A stretch of 63,754 nucleotides of DNA, the filler included, from Blastocystis sp. subtype 4 (taxonomy: Eukaryota), in NCBI RefSeq assembly GCF_000743755.1. It is 3 parts of 3 records of this genome, joined end to end, with 100 filler letters (N's around TTAATTAATTAA, not from the genome) between each part and the next. Parts side by side here need not be neighbours in the genome. Positions count along the whole stretch, not along the records: positions 1 to 22,041 come from NW_014569368.1; 2 more parts are not named here. One strand, given 5' to 3'. The notes below the pieces were generated by a model. That model saw only the letters and a program-made list of their open reading frames with translations. It was not told the DNA's origin and ran no database searches. Made by a program: the position numbers and the translations under genes. The first letter of the stretch is position 1. Every line of letters begins with the position of its first letter. Shown piece after piece: positions 3,062 to 44,045 of this stretch.

Positions 3062-3196
3062 ACAATGGAAGAATGGTTGTCAAAGAATACAAACACTTCA
3101 TCTTGATTATCATATGTACGGATTACTGAACATATTCTCTTCAACCAACACATCCTTGTTCTCATTCTTTTCTTATAAGTGAACTAATAATTGAAT

Positions 3197-3817
3197 ATGG
3201 ATTGTATATTAATGATGCCTTTTGGGTTTATGGCAATGCCTATGATTGCTGATATTATTGTCTCTGTTGTTGGAACTATTCTTCGTATTGTACCATGTAT
3301 TCTTGTCATAGTATTGACAACGAAATTGCTTTTGAGACTAGTTGGATGTGATCAAAATGAGTTGGAAGAACAATGTAAACGCCATTGTGAAACAATGAAA
3401 GAGAAATGCAGACAACACTGTGATATGATCAAGGAGAAATGTGCTTGTGCGTCAAATAAGGTGAAGGAGTGTTGTCAAAAGAATGCTCCCATCCTATCAA
3501 TTGCTCTGGATGTAAAAGAAAAGACAGATTCGTTTGTTGTAGAAGTTGATCTTCCTGGAGTGAAGAAGGAGGATATCAAGGTTGAAGTGGAAGATAATGT
3601 GATTTCAATCTCTGGAGAACGAACTGCTGAGACGGATGGTGATTTCAAGTCTCATATTATTGGAAGACACTTTGGCTCATTTGATAAGAGGGTAAAGCTC
3701 CCTGAGTCTGCTGATCTAAATGACATTATGGCCAAATACGAAAATGGAGTATTGACTCTCGTAATTCACAAGAAACCAGAGTTTGTGAATCAGAAAAAGA
3801 ACATTGTGATTGAATAG
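3197..3817 (+). CDS. Small heat-shock protein (HSP20/alpha-crystallin) with hydrophobic N-terminus and Cys-rich linker
   Basis: DLPGVKKEDIKVEVEDNVISISGER, FGSFDKRVKLP, AKYENGVLTL and C-terminal IVI (IxI) motif. TGTTTGTT at 3820-3827. Confidence 0.9.
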   Translation: MDCILMMPFGFMAMPMIADIIVSVVGTILRIVPCILVIVLTTKLLLRLVGCDQNELEEQCKRHCETMKEKCRQHCDMIKEKCACASNKVKECCQKNAPILSIALDVKEKTDSFVVEVDLPGVKKEDIKVEVEDNVISISGERTAETDGDFKSHIIGRHFGSFDKRVKLPESADLNDIMAKYENGVLTLVIHKKPEFVNQKKNIVIE

Positions 3818-4011
3818 TCTGTTTGTTTGCAACACATGAATAGAATCAAATAAAGAAAATCATCTTTCGAATAGAACCTTCGATTCTCTTGCATTAGAAG
3901 AATAGAATAAAACTTGATCGAATCCTTAATTATCAAGAAATGATCAAATGATGAAACGTGCGAACCAAAACGAATCTATTCTTCTTCTTTTCTTCATATA
4001 TTACTTATATT

Positions 4012-4638
4012 ATGTTCTATTTTAGTTCATTACCGCTTCCTTACCCTCTTAACCCTATTATTTACCTCATTACTCTTTTTCCAATAATCATTCTTCTCCT
4101 TACTCAACTACCGAAGCTATTTCTTATTGTATTTGGTGTAAAACTTGTGATTCATGTTCTTGATACATTTGTGAACAAGAAGGAGAATCAAGAAGAAAAG
4201 GAGAATGGAAAGAAGGTTGCGAGTTGTTTTAGTGATGCATTTGATGATATGAAGGATTGGATTATGAATGCATGGAATGAAATCAGAAAGTACGTTGTAA
4301 ATGTGAAATCAGCCTTTGAATGTGGAGAATACCGAGCTGAGATGACTGAATCGAAGACAGATTTTGCTATAAGTATTGATCTACCTGGAATGAAGAGAGA
4401 AGACATTAAGGTGGAGATTGAAGGAAACGAAGTAATAATNNNNNNNNNNNNNNNNGGAGAAGAGAAGAAATCAGTCTTTTCTGAAAGGGTTTATGGTGAA
4501 TTCTCGAAGAAGATTACTCTTCCTGAATCTGCTGATATGGAATCAATCATTGCAAAGTATGAAAACGGTATTCTGTCCCTCCTGATTCACAAGAAGGAGG
4601 AGAATATCCGAGATAAGAAGAGTATTGTGATTGAATAA
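4012..4638 (+). CDS. Small heat-shock protein (HSP20), tandem paralog with hydrophobic N-terminus
   Basis: DLPGMKREDIKVEI, YGEFSKKITLPESAD, AKYENGIL, IVIE. Contains a short N gap. Confidence 0.88.
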   Translation: MFYFSSLPLPYPLNPIIYLITLFPIIILLLTQLPKLFLIVFGVKLVIHVLDTFVNKKENQEEKENGKKVASCFSDAFDDMKDWIMNAWNEIRKYVVNVKSAFECGEYRAEMTESKTDFAISIDLPGMKREDIKVEIEGNEVIXXXXXXGEEKKSVFSERVYGEFSKKITLPESADMESIIAKYENGILSLLIHKKEENIRDKKSIVIE

Positions 4639-4677
4639 TAACTGTATCATGTACCATTCTTGTTAAACAAACAATAC

Positions 4678-5670
4678 AATCCTTCTTCGTTTTCAAGTCT
4701 TCAGAATAAGATGCTTGAAAAGGAATGGGGATAAAGAGTCTCTATACATCACCAATCCTATGAACATCTACTAGACCAAACAAGTGTTCAATTCCATAAA
4801 GGAAGAGGAATAAAGTGAAACAAAGAGATTTGGCTGTTACCTATATATCACCTTGTAGAATAGAAGCAACAGGATGGATTGGAGTAATAAAAGGAAGCGG
4901 AATAAACCCAATGGCACACTGATAACACAGTGACAATGTCAGCAAATGCTCTATTTCTCTTCCTTTAATCAATCAAATCAAGTTTACTGTTTTCGGGTCA
5001 TTAATGCCCTTGTAACCTTGTCCATCCATGAACCCTTCATATCATCAAGCAGAAGCGAAGCAAGAAATCCACCTCCACACCCAGTAGCAATCGATCCAAA
5101 AGTTGCAGAAACAACACTTCCATTACTCCTTATTGCTGTATCTACTCCCCACGAAGTCACACAATGAACACGTAGTAAAGCTTCAGTTAGAAAGAAGAAC
5201 AACTATCACTCACAACACAACACAACAAATAAAAGAATTCTTGAAGAGAGAATCAACAACAGATTGAGGAAGAAGTGTTATACTCACTCTACTCATATCA
5301 CTAACGATAACTAACATACGTACAAATCAAATAGGAGATAAAACCAATGGAACGACGGAGATATCCAAGCATTTGACCATGAACAATACTTGTGAATGTT
5401 GAACCACCTAGATAAGATTAAATCATCCATGAAATACCAAAACACATTAAGAATGTACATACAAACAAAGGAATCCCATGCATATATCCTTTGTACTGAT
5501 TCCGTAAGAATAGAGATGCTGTAAGTGCACAAAGAGCGTCAGCAACACTTAGAAATGGAAACGGTTCCAACCATTGAAAACCCTCAATCTAGTCCATCAA
5601 ATATTCATGTGATTAATACCGCTTGTACAGCTCCATTGAGAATAAATGTCTGATTGAAACTAGTGAACAT
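4678..5670 (-). CDS. TRIC/TMEM38-like trimeric intracellular cation channel (spliced; stop predicted to be created by polyadenylation)
   Basis: Manual splicing of ~30-nt introns gives CTFLMCFGGSTFTSIVHG...ALLRVHCVTSWGVDTA...SIATGCGGGFLASLL, matching the two Gly-rich TRIC repeats. Ends KTKKD plus an in-frame T 5 nt before TGTTTGTT (4673-4666). Confidence 0.75.
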
Positions 5671-5722
5671 GGTAAAGAACTAAGTACAACAAACAAGAAC
5701 TATACTATACATCACTGAAATG

Positions 5723-6306
5723 TTATTCTTCCAGAGCCCACTTGTTTTCCTCACGAATCTATATTCAACAATACCTCAAAACCCAACCTTCGCCTCCTCT
5801 TCAGAAGTGAAGTCATTGACAATTCCGAATGCAGCACGAATCTCTTCAGGACTCTTTCCCTTGATAATACTTGCAACCTTGGCACAACTACAGGTCAAAC
5901 CCAAGTCCCAACAATACGTCAAATCCAGAAGCGGCTGAATAATCAAGAAATTGGCAACAACAATCAGATCCAACAACTCTTCTGTAGTAATGTTCACGAA
6001 ATTGGCATCCCATTCGGATACGACATCACGCATATTGCTACTTTTCAGCGGTCTATCGATTTCAGTAAAGGGTTTGTCCAAATGATATGTACCTACAGAA
6101 ATCACTTCAACAAAACAAAACTCACAAAACTCAACAACTCTATTAAGAGAAGTCTCTTTCACGTTCTCCAAAGTGACTGTATTATTCGAGATACTTCCCT
6201 TCTCTTTCAGTCCTTTCAGATACTCAGACATTTCAAGAACCTTTGGTTCAATGATATGTCTGCCTCCTTCCATACTAATAAGTACATATTTGTCTCCGTT
6301 CTCCAT
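5723..6306 (-). CDS. SKP1: SKP1-family SCF adaptor (spliced)
   Basis: VSEWDANFV, LIVVANFLIIQPLLDLT, AKVASIIKGKSPEEIRAAFGIVNDFTSEEEAK|IREENKWALEE*. Minus-strand TGTTTGTT at 5695-5688. Confidence 0.93.
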
Positions 6307-6590
6307 ATTCTTGGCTCCAAAATGACACTTTTTCCTAATTGTCCCTATTAATAACTGACCCAATTCTTTCTTTTGTTCTTTTATCTATAGATCTTGAATA
6401 GAATGGTTGTTTACTGATCTGTAGGATGGAAAAAGTGAAGGATAGTGATATGTCGATGGATTACAGAGAACAGTAGAAGGTAATGAATGGGAGATAAGTG
6501 TAAGGAGATTCTATGAATATTGACTATGAACATTTGGAACAACACACATTCTCCATAAACAACCATGAAAGATACAATACAAACATCAAC

Positions 6591-25417: not shown

Positions 25418-26539
25418 ATGTTGATTGATGAAGAGAAACATCCAGGTATAAACTCACTTTCTAGAGTTATCTGTAGTGATCTTCGGTGTCTACAAGTTCT
25501 TCTCTGGTTCTGCTTCAGGTGTTGTGGCAGGTAGTTTCTATACTTTTTTGTAACAGTACAGCAACTCTTTTACAGCCAATGGATGTGATCAAAACCAGAC
25601 AACAGGGATACTATCACAAAGCCACTATCCAACAGGGATCAACACTGGAGATGAAAGAGAATGTAAAATGGCAAATCGCTGCAAAGAACATTTACAAAGA
25701 ACGAGGCCTTCTTGGGTTTTGGGATGGTTTAGTAGGCTTTTCTGGTACACATTAACACAAGTCCCCAAGTTTGATTCGTGTTACCTTTGGAGTAGGTCTC
25801 TACTACTATTTGTTGCATTTGATTCTACAAGATGAGACAAATGGCAAACCGTATTGATTTCCCTCTTCTGTTACATAGAAACATCAATCATAAGTCGCTT
25901 TATTCGCTAGGAGCTGGTTTTACTGCTCGATCTGTCTGTTCAGCTATTATGCTTCCAGTAACGATTGTTAAAACCAGAATGGAATATAATAAGGTTGTAA
26001 ATGACACAATCTATCACACCTGCAAGAATGTTCTGACTGTGAATAAGAAAGGTCTGTTTTCTGGTTTGATTCCAACTATTTTGCGTGATGCTCCCAATAG
26101 TGGGTTATATATTTGCATTTATCATACAATCAAACCTCACATCATGCAGTTGCGTGAAAACAATGAATCAATTCCTGTTACTTTGCTTAATTTATTAACT
26201 GGTATCACTGCAGGAATTACTTCAACGTTTATCACACATCCCTTTGATATGATAAAAACGCAAATGCAGATTAATGGTAGGTATTGGAAATGAATAACAG
26301 AAAGATGGTGATCCTAATTATTTGACAGTTCGAAGTACTGTTAGAACGATTGTGCATGATGCAAATGGAACAAGCGGTTTGCGACGTGTATGTTCAGCAT
26401 TTAAGAATATGTATACTGGTGGTTTTATGAGAATAAGTAAGCGAGCTTTGAATAGTACTATTACCTGGTATATTTATTGGTTTGCTTTCATTGTAGGACG
26501 ATTTATGAAACAATGAATCGATGGGTAAAGAATAGTTAA
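25418..26539 (+). CDS. Mitochondrial carrier, SLC25A38/Hem25-like glycine carrier (spliced)
   Basis: Three carrier signature motifs QPMDVIKTR, LPVTIVKTR and HPFDMIKTQ; LRDAPNSGLY resembles Hem25/SLC25A38. Confidence 0.8.
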
Positions 26540-26576
26540 CCGATGTTTGTTGATTCTGTGAATAAGAACAAACAAT

Positions 26577-29188
26577 TTACTGAAAGCATTCAGCACATTG
26601 AAATAGCAACATCTGAATCACATTCGCTTCTCGCAACACATTATTATGAGCAGTCTTTCCTATAATAGAATCCAAAGATACAGCAATATTCTATGACTCA
26701 AATTACATCGAATTTCACACTTCATAATAGACATCGAATTTCTTTACCTTGACCTTCTTATCAGCATGAAGAACTCCATTCCAGAATCCATTCACCATTT
26801 CTTGATATACTTCCTTTTCAGATCCCTTTGTAGCTCGAATGGTTGGGCTTGTTTCAATTCGTTCCGAATGGAATGGTACAAAAGTATCCTGACACGATGA
26901 GAATAGATAAACATAACGAAAAGCATCAAGTCCCGAATTCAGCGCCATTTTGTATAACAGGGAATTACGCTGATTCTTTTCCTCTTTCAGCAGTAGTTGT
27001 TGTACGACCTTCGAATTATTGAAGAATGAATAGAATTTCGATCCCCAATCCAGTGTGATATTCGGAAACATTACTCCCAGATGTGGTGCATTCAAAGACA
27101 AAAAAAGATTGAATTTCGATCGGAAGGGATTCAAAAGTGGCGAATTAAGCGCCAATCGAAGTACAAGTGAACCAATTGAATGCGAGATGAATGAAATGTG
27201 AGTGAGTGTATTTGCAAAAGGAATAAGATGTGAATGAATTTCTTGTGAGATCAGAAATGCTTGTTGTGTCAAAGAATCTTGGGTGTGATGAATAATGGAA
27301 TGAAGTGAGATCACATGAAGATGATGATATGTGAGAAGAAGAAGATTACCGATATGACGCATATCTGAAGGAGCTGCCTACACAATAATGATACTCATTT
27401 CTAACTTATCCGAAATCCATGTAAGATAAATACTACATGAACGTCATTTCGTTTCCATGTTAAACAACCTTCGCAGCGCTTTGCACAACCAACACACCAT
27501 CGACCACACTTCATGCATCTCCACTGTCGATTACTTCGCTTCTCCACAGTCATTTCCTCTTTCTCATATTGCTCCACTACCATCAGTGCACGATCAGTCT
27601 CTAGAAACCTCATCAAAGAATCATTCATCATCATGTTTTCCTTCTCTTCTGGAGGTGGAACTCTCTCAAACAAGGAGTAATGATCATTCAGTGTGTCCGT
27701 ATTCTACTTTTCAAACCCACATTCATTCATCACTTCACCCTCCAGATCATTTCGATTCATCTTGCTGACAATCACATTCTTAGAGAAATAATTGTGCAGA
27801 TTTCTGGAATTCACTTCTGCGAGCGCTTCTACAATAACCCCAATACAATCGCGAATTCCCGCAGTTAATCGATCATGAGCTGTCCACAACTGATGTGAGC
27901 ATTTCCGAATCCCCTCGACCAATTCTGATGCTAAATTCTCTCTTAACCCACGCATTCCTTCGATTCGCAATTCTAAGGACTCCCGTGGTGAAATAGGTTC
28001 CTGCGGGAATTCATTGCTTTTGTCAGGGGATATCAAACTAGGAGCTTCCACAGAAAACTCCATGCATGATAAGGATTCTCTCAGCGTTTCCCGTGATCCA
28101 CTTAACCGTGGCGAACCACAAAGTGGTGTTGAACTTGGCTGAGGAGTGTGGAGCGTGAGAGAAAAAGCAGAACTGAGAGTTGATTCTGACAGACCCGTAG
28201 GTGAAGGAAAAGAAGAGGATGCTTGATCAGGATACAGAAGTGATTGATAAGGAGCATATCGAATAGCTGCTACTGAAGAACTAATGGAGGTAGTACTGTA
28301 TTGCTAAATCATGAGGATTTCTGGAATAACAGAATTACAAGATCAATCGTTTGAAGACAGTTGAGAATATGATAATAACTGCTCTCAAAGAGAACATTGA
28401 TTTGTTCCTTCAATTGCGAAGCCTTGCTTGTCATCTCAATGTATGACTACATGGTAGATTCTGTTCACACTTACATCACAATCTCCAAACAGATAGTCTG
28501 CCATTGACATATGTTCTTGTTCTTCGATTTGGGTGAAACGAATATCAACTAGCGAACAAATTACAATTCCCGTGATTTCGCATAAACCCTGTTCAGGGAA
28601 CAACAAACGAACATAACTCATGGAAGAGTCGGAGCTAACACGAGAAATAGTTATGGTTTGACTTCCTATTAACTATGTAATCAACAAAGCAAGACATGTA
28701 CTGTTGGTTTTTCTGCGTATGCAATAACACGCTTATCATTCCGAATGGGACACTGCGAGAATAGATCAACGGTAAATGTCAAGGATGTGTCGTTTACATC
28801 TTCATAAGGTACTTCAATACGCCAACAACAGGAATCACGAAAAGAAGCTTCCTCACCAGAATAACGAATCAAAACACTCCGGGAAACGAAAGCATTGGAT
28901 GTCAAATCAATACTGCATGGCTTATAGTACAGCTCTGCATCCTCAACCTACAGCATAAACAATTCGCAGTAAAAACCTTACATACGTGTTATCTCTGAAA
29001 TTGCTTTTGATACATGGACTTGAATCATAAAAGAGAATCTGACCCTTGTTTGAAGACTGATGACGAATACGAAATGAATAGATGCTAGAACTGACATTTC
29101 TACATTTAAAATACCCTTGATGAACCAATCCAATGTTGCGAAATAGGTCAAAGTCCATGAAAATGAGAAACACTGCTTTCAGAGACAT
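26577..29188 (-). CDS. FAM135-like protein (DUF676 putative serine esterase; spliced)
   Basis: N-terminal FRNIGLVHQG; VVFILHG, ISFISHSIG, LSLNAPHLG, SSCQDTFVPFHSERI, LDSIIGKTAH. Confidence 0.85.
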
Positions 29189-42495: not shown

Positions 42496-42578
42496 TTTCG
42501 CTACTAGTGTGTTTGTTTAGTCAGTTCTTTGGTTTATACGTTGTGATTATCGTACTCCATGTCTTAGAACAAACACGA

Positions 42579-44045
42579 CTACACCTTCACAACTCTGGTC
42601 TTTTTGATTGTTGATTTGACAACCTTCTTGCCTTTAACTCCTCCAACAGCATGCTTCTTCTTACTAACACGAATCAGAATCAGAACTACAACCAGAATAA
42701 TCACAATTGCAACTATCACGAGAATCACAATCGTTGCAATAGACATACAGAAACCAGAAGCCTTCTGCCACTCTCCATCTTCTGTTCCTAAAATACATGT
42801 ACGTGTCTGTGTACCCACATAGTTTCCCTGTGTGGAACACTCGTGTACAGCCACTTCACCAACATCCGTAAGTGGGAAGAATCCCTCAGACAGACAACGA
42901 CCTTTACGGATAGAGATGGTCACCTCCACGGCAACTGCTTCTGCCTGATTCTCAGCATATATCACATACTGAACCATCTCTGTAATAACCGTAGGAACTC
43001 CTGAAATTTCTCCTGTCTTCTCATTTAGAGTCAAACCAGCAGGTAAGTGGATTCCCTCATCAATATACCAGTGTTCAACAATATTCTCAAATACTGGAAT
43101 TCCTGAAGACACCTGTGTATCCATCACAAATGTCATATGCGAGTTACGATAACGAACTCCTGTTGGAGCCTTCTGAGAACAGTGATCCAATTGAACCTCA
43201 CCAAATACGCCATCTTCACACAGGCGATACGAATAGCCACGATATCCTTCAGGACACACTGAAGAAGAAATCTGACCTTCACCTACTGAAGGATAAGTGC
43301 CTTCAGCAGGACATACAGCACCTGACGCTTTGCAGTATGCAGTAAACATGGCTCCAAGACTCGTTGTAGCTGAGCCTTGATCTGTAATCTCCCAGCGGAA
43401 TGTACGGAAACCAGCCAATGCTACTGGAACAGAGATCAGAGACTTTGTTCGAGAAGTTACCGTAACATTTCCATCAGAGAACATTGTGATTGGGTCGCTT
43501 CCTTCGCTCAGCCAACCATTTATATCGAAGCCCCAAGAAGTGACCGTGCTGCTTCCTACTAAATTGAATGTATTCCACTTGCTTCCTTCCAGATTCTCAA
43601 CAGTCCAGCTCACGAACGTACCAATGGTCGAAGGAAGAGTAGCCACTGTGTAGGGATCCAGGTCCATGATGTTGGCTAGCACTCCCAATGTGGGTGTAGA
43701 GGACTCGAGAGAGGAGAATGAGTCAACAACAGTAGAACAGTCATCAACTCCAAATACTCCAGTAGCATCAAACACAACAGCATCAGATGAAGTACCGCCA
43801 ACAGGACGATGAATCTCGAAACTGAATACATTAGTACCCTCCTGAATTCCAGCTGTTGATAGAATCACATGGAACTTCGAGAACACACTAGGATCATGAA
43901 CAGCCAGAGATTCTGTGTTTGAATCGAAATTCTCAGCCAGATTGAGTCGAGCAACCAGATTTCCATTCAGATAGGCAGCCACTCCTCCAGAATACTTCAC
44001 TCGAACATTCAACACTTGGTAATCATTCACTCCACTCATTGTGAA
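42579..44045 (-). CDS. Large surface-protein family paralog, 5' truncated by gap
   Basis: Colinear homology to the C-terminal half of 5..2821, with He_PIG, Cys-rich modules, TM and Lys tail (VGGVKGKK). Confidence 0.88.
   Translation of the reverse strand, partial: FTMSGVNDYQVLNVRVKYSGGVAAYLNGNLVARLNLAENFDSNTESLAVHDPSVFSKFHVILSTAGIQEGTNVFSFEIHRPVGGTSSDAVVFDATGVFGVDDCSTVVDSFSSLESSTPTLGVLANIMDLDPYTVATLPSTIGTFVSWTVENLEGSKWNTFNLVGSSTVTSWGFDINGWLSEGSDPITMFSDGNVTVTSRTKSLISVPVALAGFRTFRWEITDQGSATTSLGAMFTAYCKASGAVCPAEGTYPSVGEGQISSSVCPEGYRGYSYRLCEDGVFGEVQLDHCSQKAPTGVRYRNSHMTFVMDTQVSSGIPVFENIVEHWYIDEGIHLPAGLTLNEKTGEISGVPTVITEMVQYVIYAENQAEAVAVEVTISIRKGRCLSEGFFPLTDVGEVAVHECSTQGNYVGTQTRTCILGTEDGEWQKASGFCMSIATIVILVIVAIVIILVVVLILIRVSKKKHAVGGVKGKKVVKSTIKKTRVVKV

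What the first reader, a model, noticed from the sequence alone, without database searches (positions are those of the whole stretch)
4666..4700. Poly(A)-made stop exposes a KxKxx ER-retrieval signal on a TRIC/TMEM38 channel
The last exon reads ...EDLKTKKD then TGT AT TGTTTGTT. Termination at T4678 places lysines at -3 and -5, a canonical dilysine COPI retrieval signal, which works only at the extreme C-terminus. TRIC channels are ER-resident and animal members also have Lys-rich ends. This independently supports the cleavage position. It also implies that a shift of a few nucleotides in cleavage would change localisation or give a non-stop mRNA.
Basis: partly seen in the sequence, partly recalled or inferred. 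Interest (0 to 1): 0.7.

Follow-up and report, generated by a model that had tools for sequence, protein, structure and literature searches.

The report
Poly(A)-completed stop, ER-signal-tailed TRIC gene
In the gut protist Blastocystis, a TRIC-family membrane-channel gene has no stop codon of its own and likely gets one from its poly(A) tail, a known habit of this organism, which would leave the protein ending in a lysine pattern that its relatives all keep and that likely returns it to the endoplasmic reticulum.

Summary
This is the published Blastocystis geometry for poly(A)-made stops, first found through C-terminal CAAX motifs (PMC4159000). The gene is an eight-exon TRIC-family gene. An ortholog's model matches TRIC structures at Z 17.4, but the animal gating motif KEVxRxxK is absent. 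All 16 scorable related loci (of 18) end K-x-K-x-x; half have a genome-encoded stop there, and so does a tortoise-clade protein model. This supports the cut site independently. The poly(A) junction of this gene was not seen directly, and COPI binding is untested. Two corrections: cuts shifted within 8 nt give either the same protein (1 of 16) or non-stop mRNA (15 of 16), never a relocalised protein. The window copy also lacks 8 nt at the intron-4 donor. The stop was probably lost at least twice. Verdict: a well-supported new instance of a known mechanism, with modest interest.

The parts
4666..4673 (-). TGTTTGTT downstream element that likely fixes the cleavage/poly(A) site
   Evidence: geometry as in PMC4159000
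4674..4677 (-). 4-nt spacer between the predicted cut and the element
4678..4678 (-). last templated base T, predicted to be completed to UAA by poly(A)
   Evidence: junction not seen in RNA
4679..4693 (-). codons for K-T-K-K-D, the KxKxx end
   Evidence: conserved in 9 of 9 distinct tails
4678..4741 (-). exon 8 (last), predicted cytosolic tail
   Evidence: intron 7 (4742-4771) supported by spliced proteins P0001, P0017, P0018, not crossed by a laid RNA contig
4772..4840 (-). exon 7 (TM7)
   Evidence: intron 4841-4870 skipped in run X1
4871..4958 (-). exon 6 (TM6)
   Evidence: intron 4959-4987 skipped in X1
4988..5202 (-). exon 5 (TM4-TM5, CGGG glycine motif)
   Evidence: PF03458 E 2.5e-4, below cut-off
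5231..5232 (-). site where the window lacks 8 nt (end of exon 4 and first base of the intron-4 donor) that other copies have
   Evidence: RNA X1 shows a 22-nt net skip here
5232..5288 (-). exon 4 (truncated in the window)
   Evidence: intron 5289-5319 skipped in X1
5320..5407 (-). exon 3 (TM2 GG motif, TM3)
   Evidence: 30-nt intron 5408-5437 skipped in X1 and X3
5438..5588 (-). exon 2 (TM1)
   Evidence: intron 5589-5619 skipped in X1
5620..5670 (-). exon 1 from the ATG
   Evidence: matches NCBI model P0018
4653..4664 (+). poly(A) site (4653) and variant element of the convergent HSP20 gene, back to back with the TRIC element
   Evidence: 23-A loose end behind 4653 in X1; sequence

Best explanation
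This is the 3' end of a Blastocystis TRIC-family membrane protein gene whose stop codon is likely completed by polyadenylation at T4678, which would end the protein in K-T-K-K-D, a conserved dilysine pattern that likely works as a COPI ER-retrieval signal. Shown: the element geometry, six of seven introns in RNA, the TRIC fold of an ortholog's model through TM7, and the K(-5)/K(-3) register in all scorable relatives. Inferred: the 3'-processing complex binds UGUUUGUU and cuts 4 nt upstream; poly(A) turns U into UAA; the 263-residue protein puts its tail in the cytosol after TM7; alpha/beta'-COP binds the two lysines and the free C-terminus and returns the protein to the ER. There it likely forms a trimeric monovalent-cation pore gated differently from animal TRIC-A/B. 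The signal is older than the poly(A)-stop system. The genomic stop likely decayed at least twice once the cut overwrote it.
For: Geometry as in PMC4159000; motif 27 vs 4.75 by chance. P0001, a spliced ORF on an 830-nt contig, ends at KKD. Both NCBI ST4 models stop 7 residues short and are flagged partial, as expected when no stop is encoded. 16 of 16 scorable loci of 18 end KxKxx: 8 by the poly(A) rule and 8 at a genomic TGA/TAG/TAA. In 9 distinct tails of 18-28 residues, K is at -5 and -3 in 9 of 9, at -4 in 0, at -2 in 2, and -1 is acidic in 8. The tortoise-clade protein P0091 ends KSKKD, and that clade lacks the element (PMC12129017). Background is 119 of about 6,800 human membrane or secreted proteins, with Asp/Glu common at -1 (PMC8825798). 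Fold: Z 17.4 over model residues 9-244, next unrelated row 6.7; Atlas 0.94 to PF05197 clusters. TM7 ends on the cytoplasmic side (PMC5477506).
Against: No poly(A) junction was seen for this gene. P0001's DNA was not visible, so its end could be a contig end. The tails are K/E-rich: shuffles give KxKxx in 3.5-10.7% per tail, and the lineages are related. Only 7 of 24 more distant homologs end in a strict motif (7 of 16, then 0 of 8). Mouse TRIC-A-mCherry stays in the ER (PMC7202670), so if that tag is C-terminal as its name implies, the animal protein does not need a free tail. The window copy lacks 8 nt at the intron-4 donor and may not make this protein. Pfam TRIC is below cut-off (13.1 vs 25.9 bits) and KEVxRxxK is absent. 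The model is of the ST3 ortholog (61% identical), mean pLDDT 68.
Confidence: 0.8

Rival explanations
1. The poly(A)-made stop is right, but the two lysines are kept for another reason (basic cytosolic anchor, lipid contact or partner binding), and the protein stays in the ER by other means.
For: K/E-rich low-complexity tails; 17 of 24 distant homologs lack a strict motif; tagged mouse TRIC-A stays in the ER; the TRIC-A tail binds RyR2 (PMC7940156).
Against: The lysines are fixed relative to the C-terminus, not to TM7, across tails of 18-28 residues, while -4 and -2 vary. In 16 distant homologs the motif count is 7 at the true end against a mean of 0.65 in 20 slid registers, maximum 4.
Confidence: 0.13
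2. The window copy is a damaged allele or second copy that makes no full-length protein, so the signal is not exposed from this locus even though it is in other copies.
For: 8-nt loss at the intron-4 donor; intron retention stops at 122 residues; only non-standard 19-, 43- or 46-nt introns restore the frame. ST4 strain BT1 has two annotated copies.
Against: Apart from that gap the window differs from each of L001-L003 at only 1-3 single bases over about 1.1 kb and shows no other lesion. The window is a gapped assembly (6 N runs), so an assembly error is at least as likely. This rival does not touch the finding for the species.
Confidence: 0.25
3. The mRNA is cut elsewhere or reads through, giving a protein with a 43-residue extension that buries the motif.
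For: The last exon was not covered by RNA contigs. One low-depth contig in run X2 spans 4495-4676, but it may be DNA or HSP20 precursor.
Against: The extensions are not conserved (43, 12 and 22 residues, unrelated past the element). Read-through would overlap a highly covered antisense HSP20 mRNA. Orthologs with genomic stops end at the same register.
Confidence: 0.05

Closest known systems
Polyadenylation-made termination codons of Blastocystis nuclear genes (Klimes et al. 2014, PMC4159000; PMC5608401; PMC12129017)
   Same: Same element, same 4-nt spacing, UAA from U. The phenomenon was discovered because it restored C-terminal CAAX prenylation motifs on Ras-family GTPases.
   Different: The exposed signal here is a dilysine motif on a polytopic membrane protein. 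Orthologs show the stop present, overwritten (TAG at the cut, L011) and lost (TGG, L014) at one site.
C-terminal dilysine (KKxx/KxKxx) COPI retrieval motifs, e.g. yeast Emp47 (PMC9960064)
   Same: Lys at -3 and -5, free C-terminus, predicted cytosolic tail, acidic last residue as is common in human motifs (PMC8825798).
   Different: Binding and retrieval are untested. No listed paper or 76 describes such a motif on a TRIC protein or in Blastocystis.
TRIC channels: animal TMEM38A/B (PF05197; PDB 6iz3, 6iyu, 5egi) and prokaryotic UPF0126 (PF03458; 5wue, 5h36)
   Same: 7-TM fold, glycine motifs in TM2 and TM5, N-terminal region aligning to animal structures, hydrophilic tail.
   Different: KEVxRxxK aligns to EALxRxxC, so the gating Lys is absent. 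The tail is about 20 residues against about 60 in mammals. Pfam TRIC score is below cut-off. The nearest relatives are protist-type TRICs.

Membership tests
Blastocystis poly(A)-made stop genes | No in-frame genomic stop before the element | tested here: met
   frame open for 43 more codons
Blastocystis poly(A)-made stop genes | In-frame T, TA or TG exactly 4 nt upstream of TGTTTGTT | tested here: met
   T4678, GTAT, exact motif
Blastocystis poly(A)-made stop genes | Transcript with poly(A) attached at that base | tested here: inconclusive
   no RNA contig on the last exon in 4 runs; spliced ORF P0001 ends at KKD but its DNA was not seen
Dilysine COPI retrieval motif | Lys at -3 and at -4 or -5 from the C-terminus | tested here: met
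   9 of 9 distinct tails
Dilysine COPI retrieval motif | Tail is cytosolic on a membrane protein | tested here: met
   by homology only: ortholog model aligns through TM7; TM7 ends cytoplasmic (PMC5477506)
Dilysine COPI retrieval motif | Binds alpha/beta'-COP and drives ER retrieval | not testable with these tools
   AlphaFold failed on this interaction in PMC9960064; COPI subunits of Blastocystis not checked (S3 Fig of PMC5608401 not readable as text; text says nearly all LECA components are present)
TRIC family (TMEM38/UPF0126) | 7-TM inverted-repeat fold | tested here: met
   Foldseek: the 18 best listed rows are all TRIC structures, prob 1.00, best E 1.5e-3; VIA Z 17.4, rmsd 3.6-3.7, 216-217 aligned
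TRIC family (TMEM38/UPF0126) | Glycine motifs in TM2 and TM5 | tested here: met
   CFGGS (G68-G69) and CGGG (C160-G163)
TRIC family (TMEM38/UPF0126) | Pfam PF05197 or PF03458 above curated cut-off | tested here: inconclusive
   P0018: PF03458 17.0 vs 23.5; P0008: PF05197 13.1 vs 25.9; PF03458 passed by P0003, P0007, P0009, P0028; 10 of 16 nearest distant homologs pass PF05197
TRIC family (TMEM38/UPF0126) | Homotrimer | not tested
   no complex prediction was obtained
Animal-type TMEM38A/B channels | KEVxRxxK lipid-binding/gating motif in TM4 (PMC5143425, PMC9899828, PMC7940156) | tested here: not met
   aligns to EALxRxxC through a profile that includes protist homologs; no Lys in this stretch in 5 of 5 Blastocystis rows other than P0091
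Animal-type TMEM38A/B channels | K+ counter-current for ER Ca2+ release | not testable with these tools
   needs electrophysiology; Blastocystis has lost many Ca2+-binding families (PMC5608401 supplements)

The most novel reading that the evidence does not exclude
A C-terminal dilysine is an old, so far undescribed ER-retrieval signal of eukaryotic TRIC channels. In Blastocystis it predates the poly(A)-stop system and pins the cut to a two-base window, while the genomic stop decayed independently in at least two lineages. Conserved C-terminal signals could then serve genome-wide to map poly(A)-made stops and count independent stop losses.
Probability: 0.45. Interest if true: 0.5.

Novelty: new member of a known kind. 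Interest (0 to 1): 0.33.

Why it matters
It gives a sequence-only check of poly(A)-site precision in Blastocystis. It corrects public gene models: the ST4 models lack the last 7 residues, and the ST7 and ST1 models have other C-termini. It shows a stop codon present, overwritten and lost at one homologous site, as the relaxed-selection idea predicts. It also points to a likely ER-retrieval signal on protist TRIC channels that lack the animal gating lysine. It does not add a new mechanism.

Tried and rejected
A strict GTA..YAG splice search found no full path; this is explained by GTT donors, an AAG acceptor and the 8-nt loss. A canonical-looking 33-nt intron (5213-5181) was rejected: it gives a stop at 140 residues, and RNA uses acceptor 5203. 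A profile of Blastocystis-only rows (A1) found no TRIC chain in the PDB; phmmer of P0008 gave TRIC-B at E 0.024. The E 1e-18 hits come from a profile with 16 more distant homologs, so they are transitive. 'Shifted cut changes localisation' was rejected: 15 of 16 shifts within 8 nt are non-stop and one gives the same protein; the next in-frame T (4669) lies inside the element. L012 (ends before the last exon) and L017 (contig ends in the tail) were dropped from counts. X10 laid nothing and X3 only a distant piece; absence of cover proves nothing. The shuffle product over 8 tails (7e-11) is not used as a P value because the lineages are related. No whole genome was held. No trimer prediction and no DNA-read check of the 8-nt site were obtained. 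No earlier scan findings matched.

Full report
Observation. The finding lies on the minus strand. Positions 4699-4679 encode DLKTKKD, followed by T4678, the spacer GTAT and TGTTTGTT at 4673-4666. The window is Blastocystis, most likely subtype 4. The gene matches NCBI models of strain BT1 (P0018, KAK8793917.1), which is ST4 (PMC12129017, passages), and GC is near 39%. The element occurs 27 times against 4.75 expected. Klimes et al. (PMC4159000, parts 1-2 of 3 read) report the element exactly 4 nt downstream of about 96% of 2,419 poly(A) sites, and poly(A)-made stops in about 15% of genes. They found the phenomenon because it restored C-terminal CAAX motifs. The kind of event is therefore known.

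Gene. There are eight exons from ATG 5670. Contigs of run X1 skip six of the seven introns and show a 23-A tail at +4653 that belongs to the convergent HSP20 gene. No contig of the four runs covers the TRIC last exon with a tail, so the cut is inferred. Indirect support: P0001, a spliced ORF on an 830-nt contig, ends at KKD, and both BT1 models are flagged partial and stop 7 residues earlier. The window lacks 8 nt at the end of exon 4 and the intron-4 donor. L001-L003 have them, and X1's 22-nt net skip and both NCBI models agree with L001-L003. In the window copy only non-standard introns of 19, 43 or 46 nt keep the frame. Assembly error or a damaged copy cannot be told apart here.

Conservation. 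A metagenome scan gave 18 loci, 16 of them scorable; L012 and L017 end too early. All 16 end K-x-K-x-x. In 8 (L001-L003, L010, L014-L016, L018) the stop follows from the poly(A) rule, with an in-frame T 4 nt before the element. In 8 (L004-L006, L008, L009, L007, L011, L013) it is a genomic TGA, TAG or TAA. Among 9 distinct tails (7 from DNA, 2 proteins), 18-28 residues long, Lys stands at -5 and -3 in 9 of 9, at -4 in 0 and at -2 in 2, and -1 is acidic in 8. The proteins are 54-90% identical to each other. Per-tail shuffles give KxKxx in 3.5-10.7%, and the lineages are not independent. P0091, named by NCBI as Blastocystis sp. Blastoise, ends KSKKD. That this is a tortoise strain is my recollection; tortoise-clade strains lack the element and stop-less transcripts (PMC12129017, section 7). 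Of more distant homologs, 7 of 16 (P0091 included) end in KKxx or KxKxx, against a mean of 0.65 in slid registers; 0 of a further 8 do. The background in human membrane and secreted proteins is 119 of about 6,800, with Asp/Glu common at the end (PMC8825798, passages).

History (inferred). In the tree (midpoint root, no topology test; P0091 on a long branch), L001 and L010 group (99/97) as sister to L004 and P0003, which have genomic or gene-called stops. L014 groups with L011 (99/98). L011 has TAG with its T exactly 4 nt before the element, and L014 has TGG there. With L007, L013 and P0091 outside, the simplest reading is two independent losses of the stop after polyadenylation began to overwrite it, as proposed in PMC12129017.

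Family. Pfam is weak, but the Atlas's best feature hits are eukaryotic PF05197 clusters (0.94, 227 of 256 features shared; family on 29% of members). An AlphaFold model of the ST3 ortholog P0008 (pLDDT 68) matches TRIC structures first, at Z 17.4 over residues 9-244 for animal chains and 14-16.5 for prokaryotic ones; the next unrelated row is 6.7. The glycine motifs of TM2 and TM5 are present. TM7 ends in the cytoplasm (PMC5477506, passages), so the tail is predicted cytosolic. The KEVxRxxK motif of animal TRICs (PMC5143425, PMC9899828, PMC7940156, passages) aligns to EALxRxxC. The protein is therefore TRIC-family, but not an animal-type TMEM38, and its ion is unknown.

Mechanism. The likely sequence is: cut after U4678, poly(A) completes UAA, a 263-residue protein inserts with its tail in the cytosol, and alpha/beta'-COP binds the lysines and the C-terminus (motif rule: PMC9960064, passages) and retrieves it to the ER. 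Only cuts at 4678 or 4677 give a stop, both with the same protein; the other 15 positions within 8 nt are non-stop. The cost of imprecision is therefore non-stop mRNA, not relocalisation. Against a strict need for the signal, mouse TRIC-A-mCherry co-localises with an ER marker (PMC7202670, passages; that the tag is C-terminal is read from its name). COPI in Blastocystis rests on a general sentence (PMC5608401, section 15); the figure listing subunits could not be read, and most supplements were not searched.

Literature. None of the 15 listed papers (of 98) mentions Blastocystis, nor do the 12 listed (of 61). By title and abstract start, no listed paper or 58 describes a TRIC dilysine signal. 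The library lacks most subscription papers, so this is weak evidence of absence.

Verdict. It is a new member of a known kind. Interest 0.33; confidence in the best explanation 0.8.

Noticed in passing
window 5231-5232 (-): The window lacks 8 nt that remove the intron-4 donor; L001-L003 have them and RNA run X1 agrees with those loci. Assembly error or damaged copy.
   Followed up: partly
window 4653-4678: Convergent HSP20 and TRIC genes end 24 nt apart with their poly(A) elements back to back; the HSP20 tail is seen in RNA at 4653. The arrangement is also in L001, L004 and L010, but L011 and L014 appear to have another neighbour.
   Followed up: partly
window 3191-3817 and about 4011-4638 (+): Two tandem HSP20 genes with long hydrophobic N-terminal extensions; the first has a Cys-rich stretch, and its genomic TAG has the T exactly 4 nt before an exact element.
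   Followed up: no
window + 25295, + 34684, + 37969, - 42580, - 35086: Further candidate poly(A)-made stops by the same rule; frames not verified.
   Followed up: no
window 26539-26579 and 42505-42580: Further convergent pairs of exact elements 16 and 50 nt apart.
   Followed up: no
P0007, P0028 vs L013; P0002 vs L014; P0017, P0018 vs window: Public models have other C-termini than the spliced loci give: ST7 models read into the last intron, the ST1 model ends differently, and ST4 models lack the last 7 residues.
   Followed up: yes
L011 2086-2115 and L014 2095-2124: An extra intron inside the CGGG glycine motif, absent from the other lineages, consistent with L011 and L014 being sisters.
   Followed up: no
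P0082, P0087, P0096-P0101: A clade of eukaryotic TRICs that ends right after TM7 with no tail and no dilysine; it may use another location or signal.
   Followed up: no
window 5701-6384 (-): Skp1 gene directly upstream, whose element (5695-5688) ends 17 nt before the TRIC ATG; the order is kept in L001, L004, L011 and L014.
   Followed up: no
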